Positions 21,341 to 51,934 of a stretch of DNA of 64,000 nucleotides are shown piece by piece. Each line of letters starts with the position of its first letter. Position 1 is the first letter of the stretch. The position numbers and the translations under genes are program-made. The notes below the pieces were generated by a model. The model was given only the letters and a program-made list of their open reading frames with translations, was not told where the DNA came from and did no database searches. The DNA is from a virus. The stretch is from positions 96,001 through 160,000 of the IMG/VR virus record IMGVR_UViG_3300028920_000027; one strand, written 5' to 3'.

Positions 21341-21637
21341 ATGACTGACCGACTCCGCATTGTGACCCGCGCTGATCTCGCGCATGGCTCCCGCGCCGTG
21401 CAGGCTGTCCACGCCATGCGCGAGTGGGTCGACCAGTATCCGATCCTCGACCAGGAGTGGTACGAAAAGAGCAACACGATTGCCTTGCTTGAGGTTCCGA
21501 ATGAGTCTAAACTGCGCGCCCTATTGGAGCGCGCAACAGAACGGGGAATCCCTGTTGCATCGTGCTCAGTCCTGGGCGTGATGCTCGGCGGCTGTGCTCA
21601 TCCCTTCCCTTGGCTCTCAAGTTCGATGCCCCGGTAG
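21341..21637 (+). CDS. Peptidyl-tRNA hydrolase PTH2-like protein, C-terminus possibly damaged
   Basis: LRIVTRADLAHGSRAVQAVHA...SNTIALLEVPNE...GIPV; expected EPD-type C-terminal motif absent. Confidence 0.6.
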   Translation: MTDRLRIVTRADLAHGSRAVQAVHAMREWVDQYPILDQEWYEKSNTIALLEVPNESKLRALLERATERGIPVASCSVLGVMLGGCAHPFPWLSSSMPR

Positions 21638-21700
21638 CTCAGTTGGCAGAGCGGCTGGATTCTAACCCGGTGTGCGCAGGTTCAAGCCCTGCCTGGGGCG
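21628..21700 (+). tRNA. tRNA with 8-nt anticodon loop ATTCTAAC (Arg TCT, CTA or quadruplet TCTA)
   Basis: GCCCCGG/CTGGGGC acceptor, canonical D and T arms, stem GCTGG/CCGGT. Confidence 0.7.
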
Positions 21701-21704
21701 CTTT

Positions 21705-21780
21705 GGAGGTGTAGCTCAGTGGTAGAGCGCGGCCCTGTAAAAGGGGCTGATGTCGCGTGGTTCGATCCCACCCACCTCCA
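21705..21780 (+). tRNA. tRNA with expanded anticodon loop CTGTAAAAGG (Tyr/Thr-like, undetermined)
   Basis: GGAGGTG/CACCTCC acceptor, TAGCTCAGTGGTAGAGC D arm, TTCGATC T loop, stem CGGCC/GGCTG. Confidence 0.65.
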
Positions 21781-21815
21781 CTCTTTGAAAAAGTCGCGGG
21801 CGTTTTTTGATCCGC

Positions 21816-22747: not shown

Positions 22748-22785
22748 GGTACCGGGGGGGCTTTTAGGCCCCTGAGGATTTCAAC
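22748..22785 (+). repeat. Second isolated copy of the array-1 CRISPR repeat
   Basis: GGTACCGGGGGGGCTTTTAGGCCCCTGAGGATTTCAAC; the 3' 17 nt are identical to the array repeat. Confidence 0.88.
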
Positions 22786-22960: not shown

Positions 22961-23023
22961 TACCTGATGCCTGAGACTTGGTAGAAAGCTGACCAAAAGC
23001 GGTGGTCTCGCTCATCGACCGTT

Positions 23024-23180
23024 ACCTCGACAATCTTCGTGGATGTGGGTTCAAGTCCCTCCGGGCCAGCTCTGTCGAGTAGGGTCCGAACCACCCCCTC
23101 CCCCTTGGGTGGCTCCTTACTCGGCAGAGCTGGCCTGTAGCTCAATGGCAGAGCACACGAACTTTAGATCTGATCGAGGT
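23024..23180 (+). ncRNA. Circularly permuted tRNA-like RNA 2 (Y-RNA/YrlA-like)
   Basis: ACCTCGA..TTCGTG, T arm GTGGG-TTCAAGT-CCCTC, 21-bp closed acceptor-like hairpin (23062-82 with 23117-37), D arm TAGCTCAATGGCAGAGC, CACGAA..TCGAGGT. Confidence 0.7.
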
Positions 23181-23362
23181 CGACCCTGTGGAGCAGTAGT
23201 CTTCGGACTGAGACCAAACCGAACATCAATCCTAATACGACTGATCACAGAACCCGGGGAGCCGGCTATGCTCCTCGGGTTCGCCTATTTTGAGGACCGC
23301 GATGTTCAGGCTCGCCAAAAGTTGTTGACAGGGTGGGGAGTGGGGACTACAACAATCCCCAC

Positions 23363-24213: not shown

Positions 24214-24287
24214 GTCCCCGTAGCTCAATCTGGCAGAGCACCCGCTTCTAGTTCGGGTTGTTGCAGGTTCAATTCCTGTCGGGGGCC
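24214..24287 (+). tRNA. tRNA with CTA anticodon (amber-suppressor-like)
   Basis: GTCCCCG/CGGGGGC acceptor; arm CCCGC-TTCTAGT-TCGGG; T arm GCAGG-TTCAATT-CCTGT; own GGTG-TAGAGT promoter at 24177. Confidence 0.7.
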
Positions 24288-24290
24288 CCC

Positions 24291-43292: not shown

Positions 43293-45077
43293 GGTACCAG
43301 GGGCTTCTAGGCCCCTGAGGATTTCAACCTCTCGACTTGCCTCACTCAGAGCAGCCAGGGAAGGGGGTACCAGGGGCTTCTAGGCCCCTGAGGATTTCAA
43401 CTTCGACTACATCGTCGTTGCGGTAGAGGGTGATACGAGGTACCAGGGGCTTCTAGGCCCCTGAGGATTTCAACCCGTTCTTCATCCTTCGCACCACCTC
43501 ACCCGCCCCCGGGTACCAGGGGCTTCTAGACCCCTGAGGATTTAAACAGAAGCAAGAAGGCGCCTGAGCCAACTGCGGCGCGGTACCAGGGGCTTCTAGA
43601 CCCCTGAGGATTTCAACACGCACGTCAATGCGCCAATCGCAAGCGACCCGAAGAGGTACCAGGGGCTTCTAGACCCCTGAGGATTTCAACATCGCCAAGC
43701 TACGGGAAGAGCTCAAGCGCGCCGAGGGTACCAGGGTCTTCTAGACCCCTGAGGATTTCCTCGGGCTCTTCTTCTTTCCGGACGTCACCGACGGTACCAG
43801 GGGCTTCTAGGTCCCTGAGGATTTCAACTGCCTCGGTACCAGGGGCTTCTAGACCCCTGAGGATTTCAACTAGGCGATCAGGAAGTCGTCGCCGACGCGC
43901 ATGAAAAGAGTACCAGGGGCTTCTAGACCCCTGAGGATTTCAACAGGATGGAGGAGAACTAGGGGCTTATAGACCCCTGAGGATTTCAACACTCTTGAGT
44001 GCCTCAAGCACTGCCGCGTTCGACGGTACCGCGTTCGACGGTACCAGGGGCTTCTAGACCCCTGAGGATTTCAACGCCTTCCGAGCATCGAGCAGAACTT
44101 CGCGATGGTACCAGGGGCTTTCTAGGCCCCTGAGGATTTCAACGATCAGGCGCTGGGACAAGCAGGGATGCCCCTCGGTGGGGTACCAGGGGCTCCAGGC
44201 CCCTGAGGATTTCAACAGCGTGTTCAAGAAGACGTAGGGAACCCCTTGGTGGGTACCAGGGGCTTCCAGGCCCCTGAGGATTTCAACCTGCTGCTAATAG
44301 GTCAAAAGGGTCCAGTATCTCCGCAGATATCAGGGTCTTCTAGACCCCTGAGGATTTCAACGAGTATTGAAACGCACTTGGCCACTGGCTCCTTCTAGGG
44401 TACCAGGGTCTTCTAGACCCCTGAGGATTTCAACCTGTCGTGGCCGGCGGCCGTTGCGAGTTCGCCGGGTGGTACCAGGGGTTTCTAGACCCCTGAGGAT
44501 TTCAACGTCAGTGTCCAGGGCCGACATGAGCCCCTTGGGTACCAGGGGCTTCTAGACCCCTGAGGATTTCAACGACTTCCTCGCCGAACTGCGAGAGGCG
44601 GTAGAGTAGGTACCAGGGGCTTCCAGGCCCCTGAGGATTTCAATGGGAGGACGCCAGTCTTCTTGAGTGCCTTTTTCGACGCAGTACCAGGGGCTTCTAG
44701 ACCCCTGAGGATTTCAACGGATACACGACCCCCTGTGGGCCGAAATCGACAAGCTCGGTGGCACCAGGGGCTTCTAGGCCCCTGAGGATTTCAACAAGAA
44801 GCTCCAGGGCGATCCCGTGCCGGGCAGCACGGTAAGGGGCTTCTAGGCCCCTGAGGATTTCAACGAGTAGCCTCGGACAGGCTCAATCCCCATCAACGAG
44901 GGTATCAGGGGCTCCTAGACCCCTGAGGATTTCAACCCACATGGGGCGTCGAGCCCGAGCGAGCGCCAGGTGGCACCAGGGCACGGCAAGGGGTCGGAAC
45001 CGGGCTTCCAGGGGCTTCCACGACCGCTTTGACAGTCGAGGGGTACCAGGGGCACACAAGCCCCTGAGGATTCCAAG
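43293..45077 (+). CRISPR. CRISPR array 1: 24 repeats plus a degenerate trailer repeat; consensus GGTACCAGGGGCTTCTAGACCCCTGAGGATTTCAAC (36 nt); spacers mostly 31-41 nt
   Basis: Repeats enumerated directly; CAGGGG/CCCCTG hairpin; orientation from leader, trailer decay and downstream terminator. Confidence 0.98.
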
Positions 45078-45114: not shown

Positions 45115-45159
45115 AAGGGCACCTTCGGATTTCCTTCCGAAGGTGCCCTTTTCTTTTTT
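45115..45159 (+). terminator. Rho-independent terminator after array 1
   Basis: AAGGGCACCTTCGGA/TCCGAAGGTGCCCTT stem followed by a T tract. Confidence 0.85.
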
Positions 45160-45195: not shown

Positions 45196-45906
45196 ATGTA
45201 CCCCACAACTGCAACGTTCGTCGTTGGGATCGACGGCGAGAGAGCTTGCTACTCCAACCCGGCGTTTCGCTCAGAACGCTACACATACCCCGTGATCACC
45301 CCACCGGCAGCGGCTGGCATCATGGACAACACTTGGTGGCGGCCGGGAGTACGGTGGGTCGTCGAACGAATCGACGTCTTGAAGCCGATCCAAACCTATA
45401 CACAAACTGTCAACGAGATCAAGGTCTGCCCTCAGACCTTGGAATCGGCTCTGAAATATCGGGTAGCAAAACTGCTACCGAGCTCTGAAGCAGTTCAGGT
45501 TCAAGGAGGGGTTAACATTGAAACCAATCGCACCTTGAGGCGCACCACGATGTTGTACGACGTATCATACAACATCTGGATGCGGGCTGTATGTGCCGAC
45601 TGGAGGCTCGCCAAGAAAGCCGAAGCGAGCACCTGCCGCTTCCTTCTTTCCGGTCGTAGCTTCCGACCTCGATGCCTTGGGATGAGAGAGTTGGATGCCA
45701 AGGTACGGCTGGTCACTATGCTCGACCACGATGGGGTGGCCCACACTGACCTCCCTCGCCCCATCCCACTGACTCAGGACCTTGGGTGGATGGTACACAG
45801 CTACGTCTGGGAAAACGGCGTCCGCAAACAGGTCGGGTTGTTCCATGCCTACCTGAACGCTGGCACGCTACTCGTGCCCCCAGAACCAATGAGGATGGTG
45901 TCATGA
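45196..45906 (+). CDS. cas5: Cas5d (type I-C pre-crRNA processing nuclease)
   Basis: ACYSNPAFRSERYTYPVITPPAAAGI...WWRPGVRWVVERIDVLKPI...NEIK...YDVSY...CLGMRE. Confidence 0.88.
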   Translation: MYPTTATFVVGIDGERACYSNPAFRSERYTYPVITPPAAAGIMDNTWWRPGVRWVVERIDVLKPIQTYTQTVNEIKVCPQTLESALKYRVAKLLPSSEAVQVQGGVNIETNRTLRRTTMLYDVSYNIWMRAVCADWRLAKKAEASTCRFLLSGRSFRPRCLGMRELDAKVRLVTMLDHDGVAHTDLPRPIPLTQDLGWMVHSYVWENGVRKQVGLFHAYLNAGTLLVPPEPMRMVS

Positions 45907-47105
45907 TCCTAGAGACCTTGTATGAATTTGCCAAGCTGCATGGACTCGTGCCCAGCGTGCTTCGGAAACGACACGCCAATTACACTTTCCACCTCGATCC
46001 GAAGGGGTGTTTGCGTGAGTTCTCTGACGAGCGACAAGTGATGGCAGACGCGAAGGCCAAACGGTCCAGCAATATCCAACCCAACTTGCTCGACAATGTG
46101 GGGTACACATTCGGTTTGGGCAAGCATGGACCCAAACGACAGGAAGCCTGGTTGGAGGCCCTACGCGCCTTCAAGTCCATGGCGCCGGTTGCAACCTTCG
46201 CTCAAAAGCCTCTACCTGATGGCATCCTCAAGATTCTTGCCAAAAACTCGTCCAAGGTTGTGGCCTTCACCGTGGGAGGGGAGTCCCCCTATGAACACCC
46301 TGACATCGTTGAGCACCTGAACGCTCAAGAGGAAGGTGACTACATCTGCCGCATCACTGGACGGAGCTGTAGTCCAGGATTCGTCCCCAACATCAGCAAC
46401 CTACCCCCCAACGGAAGCTTGCAGAACTTCGTGGGGTTCAATGCGTCCGCTACACAGTTCGATGGGCGTGAAAACAAATGCTGCTTTGTCATGCATCGCG
46501 AAGTTCGCGAAGGCATCATTGCAGCCATTGACCATCTCGCGCGCTATGAGAACAAGGAGCGCCCGTCGGCCATCGTTGCAACGAAGCGCTTTCACTCCAA
46601 GAGTGAGGTAAACTCTGCTCGGAGTGGGCCCGTCCCCACGACTCTGCTCTTCTCCCTGGAACCAGAGTTCGACGTTAGCCCTCTGATGGTCCTGCTTAGG
46701 GGGTTGAGGTCAGAAGGGGAAACCCCAGAGGAACGACTGGAGGAAGGTCGACAAGCTCATAAGGCTGCCCTGGAAACCCTGGTCTCATGGACGGGCTACT
46801 CTGGGGATCTCTATGCTCTGACCCTTTGCGCTGACGGGGCCTGCCGACGGACGGCTGTACTGGACTTCACTACCATCCCTCTAGCAGAGATCCCGGCTCG
46901 GATGGAGTCGTTCACTCATGCATCTGGCCCGTACCCCCTACGCTGGCGGCTGGCCGAAATGCCCAACTACACGCTCGCGTGGCGCTTCATGCGGGCTGTC
47001 TTGGCCGGTGACCCTCTACCTCCCGCAATCCTGGCACACGCACTTCGGCAGCCGCTCAAGAACGAGCAGCTGTTGACCACTCTCACAGCTTTTCAAAGCC
47101 TTTAG
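45903..47105 (+). CDS. cas8c: Cas8c large subunit (N-terminal part only)
   Basis: MILETLYEFAK...RSSNIQPNLLDNVGYTFG; ATGA overlap with cas5; ~400 aa, shorter than typical Cas8c. Confidence 0.75.
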   Translation: MILETLYEFAKLHGLVPSVLRKRHANYTFHLDPKGCLREFSDERQVMADAKAKRSSNIQPNLLDNVGYTFGLGKHGPKRQEAWLEALRAFKSMAPVATFAQKPLPDGILKILAKNSSKVVAFTVGGESPYEHPDIVEHLNAQEEGDYICRITGRSCSPGFVPNISNLPPNGSLQNFVGFNASATQFDGRENKCCFVMHREVREGIIAAIDHLARYENKERPSAIVATKRFHSKSEVNSARSGPVPTTLLFSLEPEFDVSPLMVLLRGLRSEGETPEERLEEGRQAHKAALETLVSWTGYSGDLYALTLCADGACRRTAVLDFTTIPLAEIPARMESFTHASGPYPLRWRLAEMPNYTLAWRFMRAVLAGDPLPPAILAHALRQPLKNEQLLTTLTAFQSL

Positions 47106-47119
47106 CCAAAGAGGACCTA

Positions 47120-47596
47120 ATGCCTGAAACCACCCCTGAAACCACCCCTGAAACCCCAACCACTCCGACCAATGGTCACAGGATTTCAGAAAAAAGGCTG
47201 GCCCAGCTAAGACACCCCAACCCGACCTTTCACCTGGGCCGTGCCATGGCTCGTGCTGTGGTCATCTACAGGTACGCGCAAGGCAGTGCCGCAGCAGCAT
47301 CCCTGGAGAATAAGGTCGTGTCCGCGGGGTCTCGCCCCTTGGAAATCGTTACCCAGATTCTCAACCGGACTCAACGAGCCATCGCGTACTTGAGTCGTGG
47401 GGAGGCCCGCCAAGGGGCGGCAATCGACATCCATAACTATGAAGAAGCAGTGGAGTTGATCGATGCCCAAGCGCTGCCCCGCACGTTCCAGGCGCAGGAC
47501 CAGGTCCTGTTCTGGAACGGGTACAACAGCGAGAAGAATTGCATCCGCGCCCGACAACGTATTCAGGCTGCGGAATCGGCAAACAAAGGGGGCTAA
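47120..47596 (+). CDS. cas11: Cas11c small subunit encoded as a separate gene
   Basis: PTFHLGRAMA...LPRTFQAQDQVLFWNGY resembles the Cas8c C-terminal domain; own GAGGA RBS; different frame from cas8c. Confidence 0.7.
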   Translation: MPETTPETTPETPTTPTNGHRISEKRLAQLRHPNPTFHLGRAMARAVVIYRYAQGSAAAASLENKVVSAGSRPLEIVTQILNRTQRAIAYLSRGEARQGAAIDIHNYEEAVELIDAQALPRTFQAQDQVLFWNGYNSEKNCIRARQRIQAAESANKGG

Positions 47597-47646
47597 CTCT
47601 CCCTGCGGATTGACTCTCACCATCAGGGGCGACCCTGCGGATTGAC
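47585..47646 (+). repeat. Two degenerate CRISPR-repeat-like units between cas11 and cas7
   Basis: AGGGGG-CTAACTCT-CCCTG-CGGATTGAC and CAGGGG-CGA-CCCTG-CGGATTGAC; exact 14-nt direct repeat CCCTGCGGATTGAC at 47601 and 47633. Confidence 0.55.
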
Positions 47647-47668
47647 CCAAATGTAAATGTGGAGAAAA

Positions 47669-48670
47669 ATGACTAAGACAACTACGACTAAGGCAACTAC
47701 TCTTCCCGCCCTCGATGGACTTTTGGTAATCGAGGCCCACAACGACGCCCTCAATATCGACCCCGATGTCGGAGTGCCCCGCACCAACCCCATCTCGGGA
47801 AAGGGGGAGGTTAGCGCTGAATGCATAAAGGCCAAAATCCGGCGGTCCGCTATGCGGCTCAACCCGACTTTGGTGCCGTTCTACCACCGTGGCGCCGTCC
47901 ACCAGGACCACATCGAGCAGGCATACGAAGCTGCCGGCGCCATCGTCAAGACTGCGAAGAAGGCGTCCAAGAAGACTGCGAAGGCTGAGGCCCCCGACAT
48001 CGAGGATACTGAGGCCCCCGACACCGAGGATGCCGAGGATAACACCATCACGATCGACACCATCAAAGGCAACGCCGAGCTGTGCCGCATCTTCTTCGAC
48101 GTCTCTTGGTTTGGACTGGTGGTCACCAAGCCGGGTCGCGGTCAGATCCGGGGACCATTCTCATTCGGGATTGGCGAGACCGTCTATCCTGTGAATCTGG
48201 ATGAGCGCCTCCTGACCCGCCAGACGGTCACCAACCGAGAACGGTCAGACAAGCAGAAGGGTGCCAACCAGGAGTTCGGACGCAAGACCGTTGTGACCCA
48301 TGGGGTCTACCTCGTACACTGGCACTTCGACCCCTTCTGCGCCGACCAGAACGGGCTCACGGAGCAGGACCTGGCGGAGTTCATCGAGGCCATGCTCCAC
48401 ATGTTCCGCAACGACCAGTCGTCAGCACGGAACAACGTGACACTGCGGAAGGCTTATGTCTTCGAGCACGCGAGTCCCTTCCGGGACGCCGAACCGGTCG
48501 AGCTTTTAGAGCAAATCAAGGTCACGGCCGAGAACCCCGACACCGCGGTCTCTTGGGACGCCTACACAGTCGAGGTCCCGGCAGACTTGCCTGAGACGAT
48601 CAAGCTCCACGTCCTCAAGGACGGCCTCACCATCAACAATCCCTGGGTCAAGGCATCCGCTGCCGAATAA
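47669..48670 (+). CDS. cas7: Cas7c (Csd2) backbone subunit
   Basis: NIDPDVGVPRT...GEVSAECIKAKIR...FFDVSWFG...GQIRGP...FGRKTVVTHGVY...MFRNDQSSAR. Confidence 0.9.
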   Translation: MTKTTTTKATTLPALDGLLVIEAHNDALNIDPDVGVPRTNPISGKGEVSAECIKAKIRRSAMRLNPTLVPFYHRGAVHQDHIEQAYEAAGAIVKTAKKASKKTAKAEAPDIEDTEAPDTEDAEDNTITIDTIKGNAELCRIFFDVSWFGLVVTKPGRGQIRGPFSFGIGETVYPVNLDERLLTRQTVTNRERSDKQKGANQEFGRKTVVTHGVYLVHWHFDPFCADQNGLTEQDLAEFIEAMLHMFRNDQSSARNNVTLRKAYVFEHASPFRDAEPVELLEQIKVTAENPDTAVSWDAYTVEVPADLPETIKLHVLKDGLTINNPWVKASAAE

Positions 48671-48685
48671 TAGCCCGCTACCATG

Positions 48686-48718
48686 CCAGGGAGGGGGGTT
48701 TTTGACCCCCCTCCCTGG
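48686..48718. terminator. Strong hairpin between cas7 and the helicase gene
   Basis: CCAGGGAGGGGGG/CCCCCCTCCCTGG inverted repeat; directly followed by GGTG-TAGTTT. Confidence 0.6.
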
Positions 48719-48738
48719 TGTAGTTTTTGGGAACGTTC

Positions 48739-51252
48739 ATGAGATTCCGACACTATCAGATTCACGGATTCAGCGCGGCGACGAGTCGTCGTTGGCGTTT
48801 CATCTACCTATGCTGGGCTGTAGCTTCCGGTAAGACAGCGTTCACCCATGCCTACCTGGCCGAAGTTTTCCGCAACGGCTGGCACTCGCACGCAGTCATT
48901 GTGGGGCCCTACGAGCCCATCCGCAACGGGTTCGACACCAGCAAACTGGGTGACGATAAGCGCGAGTTCTGCATGGGGGGTGTCACTGTCCGGGCTTGGG
49001 CAGGGATGGTTCGAGAGTTGAAGAGAGGGTCCTCCCAAGCCGGCCAAGCCGGCCGCATTGAGTCGACCGTTCGGGAGTTGGTCAGCTACTTGCTGAACCC
49101 TCGCCCCACGGATGAAGCCACGGGAAGGCCTTACGCTGTCAGCGTGTGTACGCAGACAGCTCTTCAGTTAATCCTTCATATGGACCAGCTACCGGCTGAC
49201 ATGAGTCACGTGCTGTTCGTCATCGACGAAGCTCAGGGTATCGGTGCTGACTGTACCAACCGTGTCGTGAACACCCTGATTTCTCGGGGAACTCGCTTCA
49301 TCCTTGCATCGGGGTCACCGTACCGGGACGACAACCGAAATGTCCTCCCCGACCCCAATGACCCAGATGTTCTCATTCTCTCCCGGTCTCTGGCAGAGCA
49401 GATTCACGAGGGGTATGCCCCTCGTGTTAAGTTCGAGGTCGAGGTCGTTGACTGCGATGGGGACACCTATGAGTCCCGTCAGCAGCAGATGATCGACCAT
49501 GTGGTGGCCGACTTCCAACCTGGCCAGAAGAAAGTCATCCGTGCTGTCCCTGCGCGGGGTGCCATGTACGACAGGGACGGTGAGGATGCCGATGCCGATG
49601 ACTTCTCGGAGAACGTCGATGACGTGAGAGTAGGGGTGCGACTCCGGGACCTGGCGCTCAGGGCTTTTACTGAAAGGGGTTTACGATTTCGGGATGCCAC
49701 GAGCTACCCAGGCAACCACGGCGACGACTGGCTGGAGTCCGAGCGTCGGGTTCGCGACTTCAATGATTCGGAAGTTGATGTGGTGTGGGGGATCAACCGC
49801 ATCTACTGCGGCATGGATTGGGCTCTGGCGAACACAGTGTGCTGCCTAGACTTCCCCACGACTTTACCCTTGATCGTCCAGCTCCTCGGGCGTGGCATGA
49901 GGTACAAGGGCGGCCGGCACGGAGGTGGGTATGCCAACTACCCGGAGCAGTACCTCGAACGGACGCTTCTCAAAATCTACGTTCCCGGCCGACGTGACGG
50001 AAGTGAGCGCTTCTTTCGGCACGACATGGCCCAGGTAGCTGTCAAGATCGGAGCTGTCCTCGCCACAGTAGCTCTCCCGGACGGCTTGACCGCCAAGCTG
50101 GATATGCACCGAGCTTTGAGGTCCCCTCTCAGCGACGCTTCGGTCGTCGAAGGCACTGGTAGGGGGAGTGCCAACGAAAGCGAGATCGCCGAAGCCGCTA
50201 GTCAACACTTCATGATCCACTACGGACGGCGGGAGTGCACCGTTGGTGAAGCTCGTGATCAGCTCATGCGTGCATACCGCATTCGTCGCCAAAGGCAGGG
50301 TCTCGAGGTGTCGGATGAAGACGTGGAGGCAATCAACCTCTTACTCCACCGTTTCATCAGCGAACGCAACGAACGAAACCCGTTGGATCGTGAAAGCCAG
50401 CGACGCATGGGAGAAGCCCATGACCGCGCCGTTGAAGCCGCTGCTCGACGCCATCCCCACAACCCGAGACGGTTGGTACAGGAAGCCTATCGCCGCGTGA
50501 TTGACGAGTACAGCGAGATGCGGATCGTAACCGCTGAATCACCTCTTCTCAGCACCATTGTGCGATTCGTGATCGACCTCGACGATGGGACAGCAGGCGG
50601 CATTGCACAAAGGTTGGAACAAGAGTCTCGACCTCTACATGAGCAAGCTGTGCGCCACTGGGCTATGGCCTACTGGACCAACAACGGAGCCTTCCCTGAC
50701 ACCGACAGTGGCCCCGTCCAGGAAGACCCTCGCGAAGATTGGTCTCGCGTCATTGCCGCTTTACAAGGGGGTTATCGAGGACTACCCTCACACCCTTCTG
50801 TGGAAGACCTGGTGCGTTCCCATCAGATGAGTGATGGCGACGTGTTGCATCTATTCAGGCTCTGCCCCGACTTATTGCCATCGGACTTGACGGTGGGGTG
50901 GACGTCAGACGTGAGTCTGCAATTCTACTACGATCGGTACCGAGACATGAGGCGCACCGCCGAGGCGTTACCTCCACACACTTGGAATAGGCTCGTTGAC
51001 TACTTGCTCCAGCAATCAACCATTCGGCTGGGCTCCCTGTTGAACCTATTTCGAGAAACTCCAGTGACAGTTGACCTTCGGGCCCGACGGCCCTGGTATC
51101 TGTTCTGGCACTCCGTGAGCCGCGCTTCTTCGGAAGGTAGGGACCTCGACCTGCGGACATTGCGAACCTGGATTCGACGGGTTCGCAATGGAGCTGTCTC
51201 TATTGGCCAGGTCTACGACGACGACAGTTCAGCTACCACCGTAGTGGTGTAA
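48739..51252 (+). CDS. SF2 (ResIII-like) helicase with unknown C-terminal region; no HD nuclease domain
   Basis: FRHYQ (Q motif), ASGKT (I), IDEAQG (II), ASGSP (III), CGMDW (V), QLLGRGMR (VI). The helicase core begins at the N-terminus, leaving no room for an N-terminal HD domain. Confidence 0.8.
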   Translation: MRFRHYQIHGFSAATSRRWRFIYLCWAVASGKTAFTHAYLAEVFRNGWHSHAVIVGPYEPIRNGFDTSKLGDDKREFCMGGVTVRAWAGMVRELKRGSSQAGQAGRIESTVRELVSYLLNPRPTDEATGRPYAVSVCTQTALQLILHMDQLPADMSHVLFVIDEAQGIGADCTNRVVNTLISRGTRFILASGSPYRDDNRNVLPDPNDPDVLILSRSLAEQIHEGYAPRVKFEVEVVDCDGDTYESRQQQMIDHVVADFQPGQKKVIRAVPARGAMYDRDGEDADADDFSENVDDVRVGVRLRDLALRAFTERGLRFRDATSYPGNHGDDWLESERRVRDFNDSEVDVVWGINRIYCGMDWALANTVCCLDFPTTLPLIVQLLGRGMRYKGGRHGGGYANYPEQYLERTLLKIYVPGRRDGSERFFRHDMAQVAVKIGAVLATVALPDGLTAKLDMHRALRSPLSDASVVEGTGRGSANESEIAEAASQHFMIHYGRRECTVGEARDQLMRAYRIRRQRQGLEVSDEDVEAINLLLHRFISERNERNPLDRESQRRMGEAHDRAVEAAARRHPHNPRRLVQEAYRRVIDEYSEMRIVTAESPLLSTIVRFVIDLDDGTAGGIAQRLEQESRPLHEQAVRHWAMAYWTNNGAFPDTDSGPVQEDPREDWSRVIAALQGGYRGLPSHPSVEDLVRSHQMSDGDVLHLFRLCPDLLPSDLTVGWTSDVSLQFYYDRYRDMRRTAEALPPHTWNRLVDYLLQQSTIRLGSLLNLFRETPVTVDLRARRPWYLFWHSVSRASSEGRDLDLRTLRTWIRRVRNGAVSIGQVYDDDSSATTVVV

Positions 51253-51361
51253 GGTAGCGAGGGGTTCGGTGATACCGAAACCCCCAACACCTCTCGCAGC
51301 CCAAATTTTCAAGGGGGTTCCCACCCCCTTGGTCTTTGACAGCACATAACCGCTCGCATCC
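51253..51361 (+). promoter_or_regulatory. Truncated CRISPR leader of array 2
   Basis: GCGAGGGG..CCCC..ACCTCTCGCA..GGGGGT..CTTTGACA as in leader 1, but only ~20 nt before a 5'-truncated first repeat. Confidence 0.6.
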
Positions 51362-51934
51362 CAATTCTTGCCCTTGAGGATTCCAACAGCTCCTCCAGAA
51401 CACCCGGGGCGAGTCGGCCGTACAGGAACAAGGGCAATTCTTGCCCTTGAGGATTCCAACCACAACTTCGAGTTGGTTCACTACGGGGAGGGGCAAGGGC
51501 AATTCTTGCCCTTGAGGATTCCAACCATGGTTCGGCGAACGAACTTGCATTTCTCGTACTGCGGGACAAGGGCAATTCTTGCCCTTGAGGATTCCAATGA
51601 TCTGCTGTGAGACAAAGCTAAAATGCCCTCTCTGAAACAAGGGCAGTTGCCCTTGAGGATTCCAACATCGCCCACGAGACCAAGGCAGACTTCGACGAAT
51701 GGCAAGACAAGGGCAGTCCATGCCCTGAGGATTCCAACGTGGCTCCCGCGACCCGGTCGAACACCTCGAGGAAGGAGACAGTCTTGGCCCTTGAGGATTC
51801 CAACCTGCGGTAATGGCACAAGCAGACGTTTTACCGTCGTGAGACAAGGGCCTTGCCCTTGAGGATTCCAACATCCAAAACCACTCTGGGAGCTACGGCT
51901 ACATCGTATGTGTCTTTGCCCTTGAGGATTCATG
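51362..51934 (+). CRISPR. CRISPR array 2: ~9 repeats, consensus near GGGACAAGGGCAATTCTTGCCCTTGAGGATTCCAAC, 8 spacers, increasingly degenerate 3'
   Basis: Repeats enumerated directly; CAAGGGC/GCCCTTG hairpin; 29-37 nt unique spacers. Confidence 0.93.

What the first reader, a model, noticed from the sequence alone, without database searches (positions are those of the whole stretch)
45196..51252. Cas3-less type I-C-like Cascade paired with a non-Cas3 SF2 helicase between two arrays
Seen: cas5d, cas8c, cas11 and cas7 are followed by an ~840-aa SF2 helicase (ASGKT, DEAQ, SGSP, QLLGRGMR) with no HD nuclease motif. Its C-terminal region includes a W...WTNNGAFPDTDSGPV...W..V.AALQGGYRGLP block. No cas1, cas2, cas3, cas4 or cas6 is present in the window. 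Known: canonical I-C needs Cas3 (HD + SF2) to destroy DNA; type IV-A uses the nuclease-less CasDinG; huge-phage surveys have reported type I variants where a helicase replaces Cas3, so the class may not be wholly new. Inference: the system may silence or block targets (host genes or competing phages) rather than degrade them, and may borrow host Cas1-Cas2. A hairpin and separate promoter motif split the helicase from cas7, so its functional link is unproven.
Basis: partly seen in the sequence, partly recalled or inferred. Interest (0 to 1): 0.82.

Follow-up and report, generated by a model that had tools for sequence, protein, structure and literature searches.

The report
Phage Cascade with helicase replacing Cas3
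A fragment of a very large marine-sediment phage carries a CRISPR targeting complex whose usual DNA-shredding enzyme (Cas3) is replaced by a nuclease-free motor protein; this layout was noted in 2020 but I found no paper that tests it, so how it disables its targets is still open.

Summary
The genes are cas5d (45196-45906), cas8c (45903-47105), a separate cas11-like gene (47120-47596), cas7 (47657-48670) and an 837-aa SF2 ATPase (48739-51252). They lie between two CRISPR arrays that share a 3' handle but have different hairpin stems.

No cas1, cas2, cas3 (HD or core), cas4 or cas6 was found in the 182-kb record. That record is only about 38% complete. A 301-kb relative with terminal repeats also lacks cas3 and cas1.

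The helicase is not Cas3 or CasDinG. Its closest solved relative by sequence is a type I restriction motor (HsdR). It has no conserved nuclease signature.

All five members of this helicase clade (23-29% identity by tblastn, up to 35% in the core) sit directly after cas7. None of five looked-up relatives outside the clade is cas-linked, and none of 80 canonical I-C loci holds a homologue.

The class was published by Al-Shayeb et al. (2020) and was seen before in this scan on other DNA. This is therefore a new member of a known, uncharacterised kind. Nuclease-free interference is an inference. Borrowing host Cas1-Cas2 is not supported, because the repeat stems drift with compensatory changes.

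The parts
43293..45077 (+). CRISPR array 1: about 26 units of a 36-nt repeat (hairpin plus invariant 3' handle ...CTGAGGATTTCAAC). Spacers are mostly 30-41 nt. Some units are degenerate or collapsed (6-nt and 10-nt 'spacers' at 43829-43834 and 43945-43954).
45115..45150 (+). Terminator-like hairpin (15 pairs, followed by a T run) between array 1 and cas5d.
45196..45906 (+). cas5d (236 aa), the presumed pre-crRNA endonuclease and Cascade subunit.
45903..47105 (+). cas8c/csd1 (400 aa). Its ATG overlaps the cas5d stop. The conserved CRITGxxC motif is present.
47120..47596 (+). cas11-like small subunit (158 aa). It corresponds to the split-off C-terminal region of Csd1, which is fused to Cas8c in loci L001 and L090.
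47657..48670 (+). cas7/csd2 (337 aa).
48683..48721 (+). Strong GC-rich hairpin followed by a T-rich tail between cas7 and the helicase. It is a likely attenuator or partial terminator. An unrelated 17-bp hairpin sits at the same place in L001.
48739..51252 (+). Cascade-linked SF2 ATPase/helicase (837 aa, P0002). It has a two-RecA core (1-420), a helical linker, one 'W-module' (about 625-700) and a clade-specific helical tail. No nuclease domain was found.
51358..51931 (+). CRISPR array 2: 8-9 units with a different stem (GGGCAA...TTGCCC) but nearly the same 3' handle (GAGGATTCCAAC).
22748..22785 (+). Solitary copy of the array-1-type repeat (7-bp hairpin plus exact handle), far from the arrays and inside an RNA-gene cluster. 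It is a possible extra Cas5d processing site.

Best explanation
This is a phage-borne, adaptation-less derivative of a type I-C CRISPR-Cas system in which Cas3 has been replaced by a nuclease-free SF2 motor protein.

Shown here: the gene set, the two arrays, the absence of Cas3 domains in the helicase, intact ATPase motifs, and a clade-specific, long-conserved linkage of this helicase to cas5d-cas8c(-cas11)-cas7.

Inferred mechanism:
1. Cas5d cuts the pre-crRNA at the base of each repeat hairpin, leaving the conserved handle.
2. Cas5d, Cas8c, Cas11 and Cas7 assemble with the crRNA into a Cascade that forms an R-loop on matching DNA of a rival mobile element or the host.
3. The helicase is recruited to the R-loop and uses ATP to translocate or unwind from it. 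This would evict polymerases or block replication and transcription without cutting, much as CasDinG is thought to do in type IV-A.
4. The hairpin after cas7 lowers read-through, so less helicase than Cascade is made.
5. The arrays are inherited guide libraries, not actively growing ones.

My odds: real Cascade-helicase functional unit about 0.9; nuclease-free mode of action about 0.45-0.5.
For: 1.

2. Helicase identity. Its only Pfam match is a weak Helicase_C hit. It has no NCBIfam or PADLOC Cas3/DinG match. Canonical I-C Cas3 proteins taken from loci found here score Cas3_HD plus Cas3-like_C_2 in the same test.

3. Nearest relatives. A profile of the Cas-linked clade finds type I HsdR best among solved structures (3h1t, E 2e-9), then UvrB and XPB. 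No Cas3 or DinG appears at E up to 0.1, and nothing matches the C-terminal half. The AF2 core aligns equally well with Mfd, INO80/ISWI, RIG-I/LGP2, XPB, RadD and FANCM (Z 20-23).

4. Conserved residues. Motifs I, II, III and VI are invariant in the clade. No H/D/E cluster is conserved in residues 420-837, which are predicted all-helical.

5. Synteny. The helicase directly follows cas7 in L001 (a 301-kb phage), L002, L003 and L090, with overlapping or adjacent genes in three of them.

6. Trees. These five helicases form one clade (SH-aLRT 97) inside a wider ResIII family. P0145 was placed in the clade before its context was known.

7. Specificity. None of the five relatives looked up outside the clade is visibly cas-linked: P0036, P0047, P0106 and P0043 have no cas gene on their contigs, and P0012 has no cas7 in the 700 bp upstream on a 3.5-kb contig. 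None of 80 canonical I-C cas7 loci holds a homologue.

8. Co-divergence. The five linked Cas7 proteins also group together.

9. Missing genes. There is no cas3, cas1, cas2, cas4 or cas6 in the 182-kb record. There is no cas3 or cas1 in the 301-kb relative, which has direct terminal repeats.

10. Repeats. 45 of 51 distinct repeats from three loci keep a hairpin of 5 bp or more next to an invariant handle, with 26 different 3' arms. A shuffled control gave a mean of 3.2 and a maximum of 8.
Against: No experiment exists for this system or its relatives, and I found none in the literature.

The window's record is about 38% complete, so a cas3 or another nuclease could lie elsewhere. CheckV rates even the terminal-repeat relative at 62%.

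The C-terminal 400 residues are modelled poorly (pLDDT mostly under 60). A cryptic catalytic site is therefore unlikely but not excluded.

Members of the wider helicase family are fused to an Mrr-type nuclease (P0009) or sit beside DNA methyltransferases. The ancestral context is thus restriction-like, and a nuclease acting in trans is plausible.

No spacer target was found, so the biological target class is unknown.

The strong hairpin after cas7 could mean the helicase is expressed separately.
Confidence: 0.6

Rival explanations
1. The helicase is a true Cascade partner, but interference is destructive. It would load at the R-loop and work with a nuclease supplied in trans. Candidates are a host Cas3 or HD protein, a host or phage restriction-type nuclease, or a gene in the missing about 60% of the genome. 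It could also stall like a type I/III restriction motor to trigger cutting.
For: The nearest solved relative by sequence is a type I restriction R subunit. Family members are fused to Mrr_cat_2 (P0009) or neighbour N6/N4 methyltransferases. The record is incomplete.
Against: No nuclease gene is conserved next to the helicase in the five Cas-linked loci. The downstream genes are unrelated: an array, lysin-like genes and unknown ORFs. There is no cas3 HD or core in the 301-kb terminal-repeat relative. No bacterial array with this repeat was found that would point to a compatible host I-C system.
Confidence: 0.27
2. The helicase is an unrelated phage housekeeping or anti-restriction helicase that merely sits beside a stand-alone, DNA-binding-only Cascade. 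That Cascade would act like CRISPRi, as the Cas3-less Cascades of Tn7-like transposons do.
For: A strong terminator-like hairpin separates it from cas7. Distant homologues occur without cas genes.
Against: All five members of its clade lie immediately after cas7 at about 23-35% identity, with overlapping or adjacent genes in three loci. The Cas7 and helicase trees both group the same loci. It has no PHROG family match, as a common phage housekeeping helicase would.
Confidence: 0.06
3. The protein is a highly diverged Cas3' (helicase-only Cas3) whose HD partner (Cas3'') is encoded elsewhere.
For: It occupies a Cas3-like place in the operon and is an SF2 DExx ATPase.
Against: It has no Cas3_HD, cas3_core or Cas3-like_C_2 signal, while canonical Cas3 proteins score all of these in the same test. 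It lies on the far side of a long branch from I-C Cas3 and nests inside a ResIII family with non-CRISPR members. No Cas3 chain appears in the profile search of solved structures.
Confidence: 0.03

Closest known systems
Helicase-associated type I-C variant of huge phages (Al-Shayeb et al. 2020, Nature 578:425, PMC7162821, Extended Data Fig. 9)
   Same: It is phage-borne. It has a Cas5d-like protein without Cas6, lacks Cas1 and Cas2, and has 'a helicase protein instead of Cas3'. The window's locus fits this description point for point.
   Different: The paper gives only the architecture and a helicase tree, with no mechanism. Its two phages also carry a CasPhi (Cas12j) system, and no third array or CasPhi-sized gene near an array was seen in this 182-kb fragment. 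I could not test whether the published helicase is orthologous to this one. Earlier notes of this scan describe variants with a methyltransferase-like partner, and none is present here or in the four related loci.
Canonical type I-C CRISPR-Cas (Desulfovibrio vulgaris / Bacillus halodurans / Pseudomonas aeruginosa type: cas3-cas5-cas8c-cas7-cas4-cas1-cas2)
   Same: It shares Cas5d, Cas8c and Cas7 homologues and has no Cas6. The repeat has a hairpin and a ...GATTTCAAC-type 3' handle.
   Different: There is no Cas3 and no adaptation module. Cas11 is a separate gene, not an internal translation product of cas8c (the latter is from my own knowledge of I-C). Cas7 is only 27-34% identical to canonical I-C Cas7 and forms its own group. 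Repeat stems are heterogeneous.
Type IV-A CRISPR-Cas with CasDinG
   Same: A Cascade-like complex without an acquisition module is paired with a nuclease-less SF2 helicase. It is carried by a mobile element. The presumed action is nuclease-independent interference (abstracts of PMC11519345 and bioRxiv 10.1101/2023.06.23.546257).
   Different: The effector complex here is type I-C-derived, not Csf. The helicase is not DinG/XPD-like: P0002 has no PADLOC typeIV_DinG hit and no DinG or XPD chain appears in the profile search. If the mechanism is alike, it arose independently.
Type I / ISP / III restriction motors (HsdR, LlaBIII, EcoP15I Res) and other duplex translocases (Mfd, Snf2, XPB, RadD)
   Same: The nearest sequence and fold relatives of the ATPase core are in this group. 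Relatives of the family neighbour methyltransferases or carry an Mrr nuclease.
   Different: The Cas-linked clade has no nuclease domain or methyltransferase partner. It carries one copy of an uncharacterised 65-aa W-module plus a clade-specific tail.

Membership tests
Type I-C CRISPR-Cas (canonical) | Cas5d, Cas8c (Csd1) and Cas7 (Csd2) present, no Cas6 | tested here: met
   Pfam hits are above gathering scores for Cas_Cas5d, Cas_Csd1 and Cas_Cas7, and TIGR01876 is above its cut-off. The NCBIfam Csd1 and Csd2 equivalog scores are below their cut-offs, so the proteins are divergent. No Cas6 hit in the record.
Type I-C CRISPR-Cas (canonical) | Cas3 with an HD nuclease fused to an SF2 helicase | tested here: not met
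   No Cas3_HD or cas3_core match in the 182-kb record. The helicase lacks Cas3 domains, while control I-C Cas3 proteins have them. The record is incomplete.
Type I-C CRISPR-Cas (canonical) | Adaptation module Cas1-Cas2-Cas4 | tested here: not met
   No match in the record. No Cas1 in the 301-kb relative.
Cas3 family | Cas3 helicase core (TIGR01587) and Cas3-type C-terminal domain (PF22590) | tested here: not met
   No hit for the window protein. Five canonical Cas3 proteins scored PF22590, and four of them PF18019, in the same test. The helicase is separated from Cas3 by the longest branch of the tree.
CasDinG (type IV-A helicase) | DinG/XPD-type SF2 helicase matching CasDinG profiles | tested here: not met
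   No PADLOC typeIV_DinG or Csf4 hit for P0002 at E up to 0.01. The fold searches are inconclusive on this point, because families not listed are not excluded.
Huge-phage type I-C variant with helicase (Al-Shayeb 2020) | Phage genome; Cas5d-like protein without Cas6; no Cas1/Cas2; a non-Cas3 helicase in place of Cas3 | tested here: met
   The source is an IMG/VR virus record.
Huge-phage type I-C variant with helicase (Al-Shayeb 2020) | Helicase orthologous to the published 'unidentified helicase' | not testable with these tools
SF2 ResIII-type helicases | Motifs I (GKT), II (DExx), III (S/T-A/G-T/S-P) and VI (QxxGRxxR) in a two-RecA fold | tested here: met
   The motifs are invariant in alignment A2. 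The AF2 core is confident. Relatives score Pfam ResIII, but the window protein itself reaches only Helicase_C at E 2.4e-4.

The most novel reading that the evidence does not exclude
Cascade here recruits a restriction- or Mfd-like duplex translocase that has no nuclease. A type I system would then have independently reinvented the type IV-A/CasDinG strategy: RNA-guided, ATP-driven eviction of polymerases or remodelling of target DNA without cutting. It would run on an inherited guide library whose repeats are held only by the hairpin-plus-handle shape, and Cas5d may also process a non-CRISPR RNA at a solitary repeat beside a Y-RNA-like gene.
Probability: 0.4. Interest if true: 0.8.

Novelty: new member of a known kind. 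Interest (0 to 1): 0.55.

Why it matters
Cas3 defines type I CRISPR-Cas. A lineage that swapped it for a nuclease-free motor and then kept that pairing through deep divergence argues that the motor itself gives a useful RNA-guided outcome. That outcome could be silencing, replication block or polymerase eviction.

This would be a second, independent origin of CasDinG-like interference. It is also a compact programmable DNA-motor system of possible use as a tool.

The comparative results here turn a one-line published observation into a defined, testable five-gene system. They are: clade-specific linkage, a relative with terminal repeats that has no cas3 or cas1, and repeat stems that drift while keeping their pairing.

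Tried and rejected
- Complex prediction of Cas8c with the helicase C-terminal half gave no verdict. It is not used as evidence either way.
- Spacer targets: no convincing protospacer in the phage's own 182-kb record or fetched loci. INPHARED gave only a chance-level 26-nt hit that overlaps repeat sequence. Three leader-proximal spacers found nothing in IMG/VR.
- Host search by repeat: the first pattern found nothing in genome contigs. The looser two-handle pattern gave mostly single chance hits, and its one multi-hit locus (L103, Rubritalea) is a 68-bp satellite, not a CRISPR array.
- The search for related loci with the helicase alone found nothing in IMG/VR. The helicase alignment was too divergent to seed a scan.
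- A conserved gene downstream of the helicase (possible nuclease or methyltransferase partner) was not found in the Cas-linked clade.
- W-module fold: Foldseek found nothing significant. The VIA wide search gave only weak TetR-type HTH-like matches (Z up to 4.9), so the fold stays unassigned. The Pfam scan of the three C-terminal pieces gave no credible hit. The ESM Atlas gave no usable feature hit.
- Expression: no RNA holder was listed among public runs, and read laying was not run.
- Literature: I found no functional study of this variant.

Full report
**What is there**

The window is bases 96001-160000 of a 182,335-bp IMG/VR virus record. The record is linear, and CheckV estimates it at about 38% complete, so it is a fragment of a very large phage. 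Its DNA is held by marine-sediment metagenome runs.

At 45196-51252 on the plus strand lie five genes:
- cas5d (236 aa)
- cas8c (400 aa, counted from ATG 45903, which overlaps the cas5d stop)
- a separate 158-aa gene that matches only the C-terminal part of Csd1, which makes it cas11-like
- cas7 (337 aa)
- a large SF2 ATPase

Cas5d also matches solved Cas5d and type I-C Cascade chains. The cas11-like protein aligns colinearly, though weakly, with the C-terminus of the fused 564-aa Cas8c of a related locus.

The helicase most likely starts at ATG 48739 (837 aa, P0002).

**Arrays**

Array 1 (43293-45077) gave 20 repeat matches where none is expected by chance, and about 26 units when degenerate ones are counted. 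Array 2 (about 51358-51931) has 8-9 units with a different stem but nearly the same 3' handle. One solitary repeat lies at 22748-22785. The record holds no other array.

**What is missing**

Profile searches of the whole record found no Cas3 HD domain, Cas3 helicase core, Cas1, Cas2, Cas4 or Cas6. The same profiles did score in control genomes. Because the record is incomplete, this alone does not show that the phage lacks them.

A related phage record (G001, 301,550 bp, with direct terminal repeats) carries the same system. It also has no Cas3 HD, Cas3 core or Cas1.

**What the helicase is**

Its only Pfam match is a weak Helicase_C hit. It has no NCBIfam match, no PADLOC Cas3 or CasDinG match, no PHROG and no direct sequence match to a solved structure. 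As a positive control, five canonical I-C Cas3 proteins taken from loci fetched here scored DEAD and Cas3-like_C_2, and four of them also scored Cas3_HD.

An exhaustive HMMER search found 1,082 relatives. They fall into two kinds:
- Full-length relatives at about 25-35% identity that score Pfam ResIII/DEAD/Helicase_C.
- Hundreds of proteins that share only residues about 625-700. It is a roughly 65-aa module repeated up to 14 times in other proteins, including a protein with Mrr nuclease, ResIII and Helicase_C domains.

An AlphaFold model built from 20 relatives is confident for a two-RecA core (residues 1-420). It predicts an all-helical, poorly defined C-terminal half. Foldseek and VIA-align place the core equally close to Mfd, INO80/ISWI/Chd1, RIG-I/LGP2, XPB, RadD, FANCM, EcoP15I Res, LlaBIII and HsdR, with Z of 20-23 and the rows tied. 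A profile of the Cas-linked clade finds a type I restriction R subunit as the best solved relative (3h1t, E 2e-9), then UvrB and XPB. All of these matches lie in the core.

ATPase motifs I, II, III and VI are invariant across the clade. In the C-terminal half the invariant residues are L, P, R, W, A and G, with no H/D/E cluster.

The W-module modelled alone is confident (pLDDT 86.5). It is a small bundle of four helices with a short hairpin, and it has only weak TetR-HTH-like matches.

I therefore found no HD, PD-(D/E)xK or HNH signature. The poor model of residues 420-837 means a cryptic site cannot be strictly excluded.

**Is the helicase part of the system?**

Contexts of close relatives:
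- P0006 lies on the 301-kb phage as cas5d-cas8c-cas7-helicase-array.
- P0060 lies as array-cas5d-cas8c-187-aa gene-cas7-helicase.
- P0010 lies as cas7-helicase, with a one-base gap.

Tree test:
- In a tree of helicase cores these three, the window protein and P0145 form one clade (SH-aLRT 97). The clade sits inside the wider family, and canonical Cas3 is a distant outgroup.
- I looked up P0145 only after the tree was built. It too lies as cas5d-cas8c-cas7-helicase, with the helicase start overlapping the cas7 stop.
- All five clade members are therefore Cascade-linked.

Relatives outside the clade show no cas link:
- P0036 follows an N6/N4 methyltransferase.
- P0047 precedes a weak methyltransferase-like gene.
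- P0106 lies in a ParA/ParB plus methylase element.
- P0043 lies near another N6/N4 methyltransferase.
- P0012 has no cas7 in the 700 bp upstream on its 3.5-kb contig.

Two further checks agree. None of 80 canonical I-C cas7 loci from metagenomes encodes a homologue of the helicase. The five helicase-linked Cas7 proteins also group together against 73 canonical ones (SH-aLRT 80 for all five, 98 for four), although the branches are long.

Both partners thus appear to have been inherited together since a single recruitment of a helicase from a restriction-like family carried by mobile elements.

**The hairpin**

The hairpin after cas7 is very stable (-43.4 kcal/mol, z -5.5) and is followed by a T-rich tail. 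L001 has an unrelated 17-bp hairpin at the same place (-32.7 kcal/mol, z -6.5). In L002, L003 and L090 the two genes abut or overlap.

I read the hairpin as an attenuator, or an RNA-stabilising 3' end, that sets a lower dose of helicase than of Cascade subunits. It does not argue for functional independence. No promoter-like site was found behind it.

**Repeats**

Across the window, L001 and L002, the 12-13-nt 3' handle is almost invariant, but the stem sequences differ from unit to unit. Of 51 distinct repeats, 45 keep a hairpin of 5 bp or more that abuts the handle, using 26 different 3' arms. When the 5' part was shuffled, the mean was 3.2 and the maximum 8.

This fits selection for a shape recognised by Cas5d. 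It argues against recent Cas1-Cas2 activity, which copies the repeat each time a spacer is added (the latter point is from my general knowledge). Collapsed units in array 1 (6-nt and 10-nt 'spacers') point the same way.

**Mechanism**

Shown: the parts list, intact ATPase motifs, no detectable nuclease, and conserved linkage.

Inferred: Cas5d processing, Cascade R-loop formation, recruitment of the motor, and ATP-driven action on the target without cutting, by analogy with type IV-A CasDinG.

The main rival is that a nuclease acts in trans. The restriction-like ancestry of the helicase makes that a serious alternative. The targets are unknown, because no protospacer was found.

**Novelty**

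Al-Shayeb et al. [quoted passage not shown] I found no functional study since then.

Earlier notes of this scan report the same class on other genomes, often with a methyltransferase-like partner. That partner is absent here and in the four related loci.

This is a new member of a known but uncharacterised kind.

Noticed in passing
window 22748-22785 (with 21628-21781, 23015-23186, 24214-24289): A solitary CRISPR repeat (7-bp hairpin plus exact 3' handle) sits about 21 kb from the arrays, inside an RNA-gene cluster. The cluster has two tRNAs upstream, a sub-threshold YrlA (Y RNA-like) match about 230 nt downstream (32 bits against a gathering score of 69) and another tRNA further on. Cas5d might process this transcript.
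   Followed up: partly
window 24214-24289 and 21628-21701: ARAGORN calls a tRNA with anticodon CTA, an amber-suppressor type that it labels Pyl. It also calls a tRNA with a four-base anticodon (tcta). This hints at stop-codon or frame recoding in this phage. The cas genes and the helicase are open under table 11.
   Followed up: no
L001 8531-10870; L002 36-713: Arrays of the related loci have repeats whose stems change from unit to unit (for example GGGAC/GTCCC, GGAGC/GCTCC, GGTGC/GCACC, GAGGC/GCCTC), while the handle CTGATGATTTCAAC stays fixed. This is a striking within-array series of compensatory changes.
   Followed up: yes
window 50611-50838 (helicase residues about 625-700); P0005, P0009 and other hits: The W...WPxxxSG...W...AL..G.RGLP block is a roughly 65-aa module with no Pfam family. 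It is repeated up to 14 times in hundreds of metagenomic proteins. The Atlas clusters that carry it are mostly Planctomycetota. One carrier is a protein with Mrr nuclease, ResIII and Helicase_C domains.
   Followed up: partly
window 43829-43834, 43945-43954, 44144-44251, 44937-45041: Array 1 has irregular units: 6-nt and 10-nt 'spacers', plus two stretches of about 105 nt. One of the long stretches holds a degenerate repeat. This suggests decay or recombination inside the array.
   Followed up: partly
L103 1953-3465 (Rubritalea MAG): A 68-bp satellite repeat (22 copies, 93% alike) happens to contain the reverse complement of the CRISPR handle. It is not a CRISPR array.
   Followed up: yes
L009 2470-8816 (IMG/VR contig): Another viral contig carries a canonical type I-C set with a full Cas3 (HD, DEAD and Cas3-like_C_2 domains). 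Phages therefore carry both the Cas3 form and the helicase form.
   Followed up: partly
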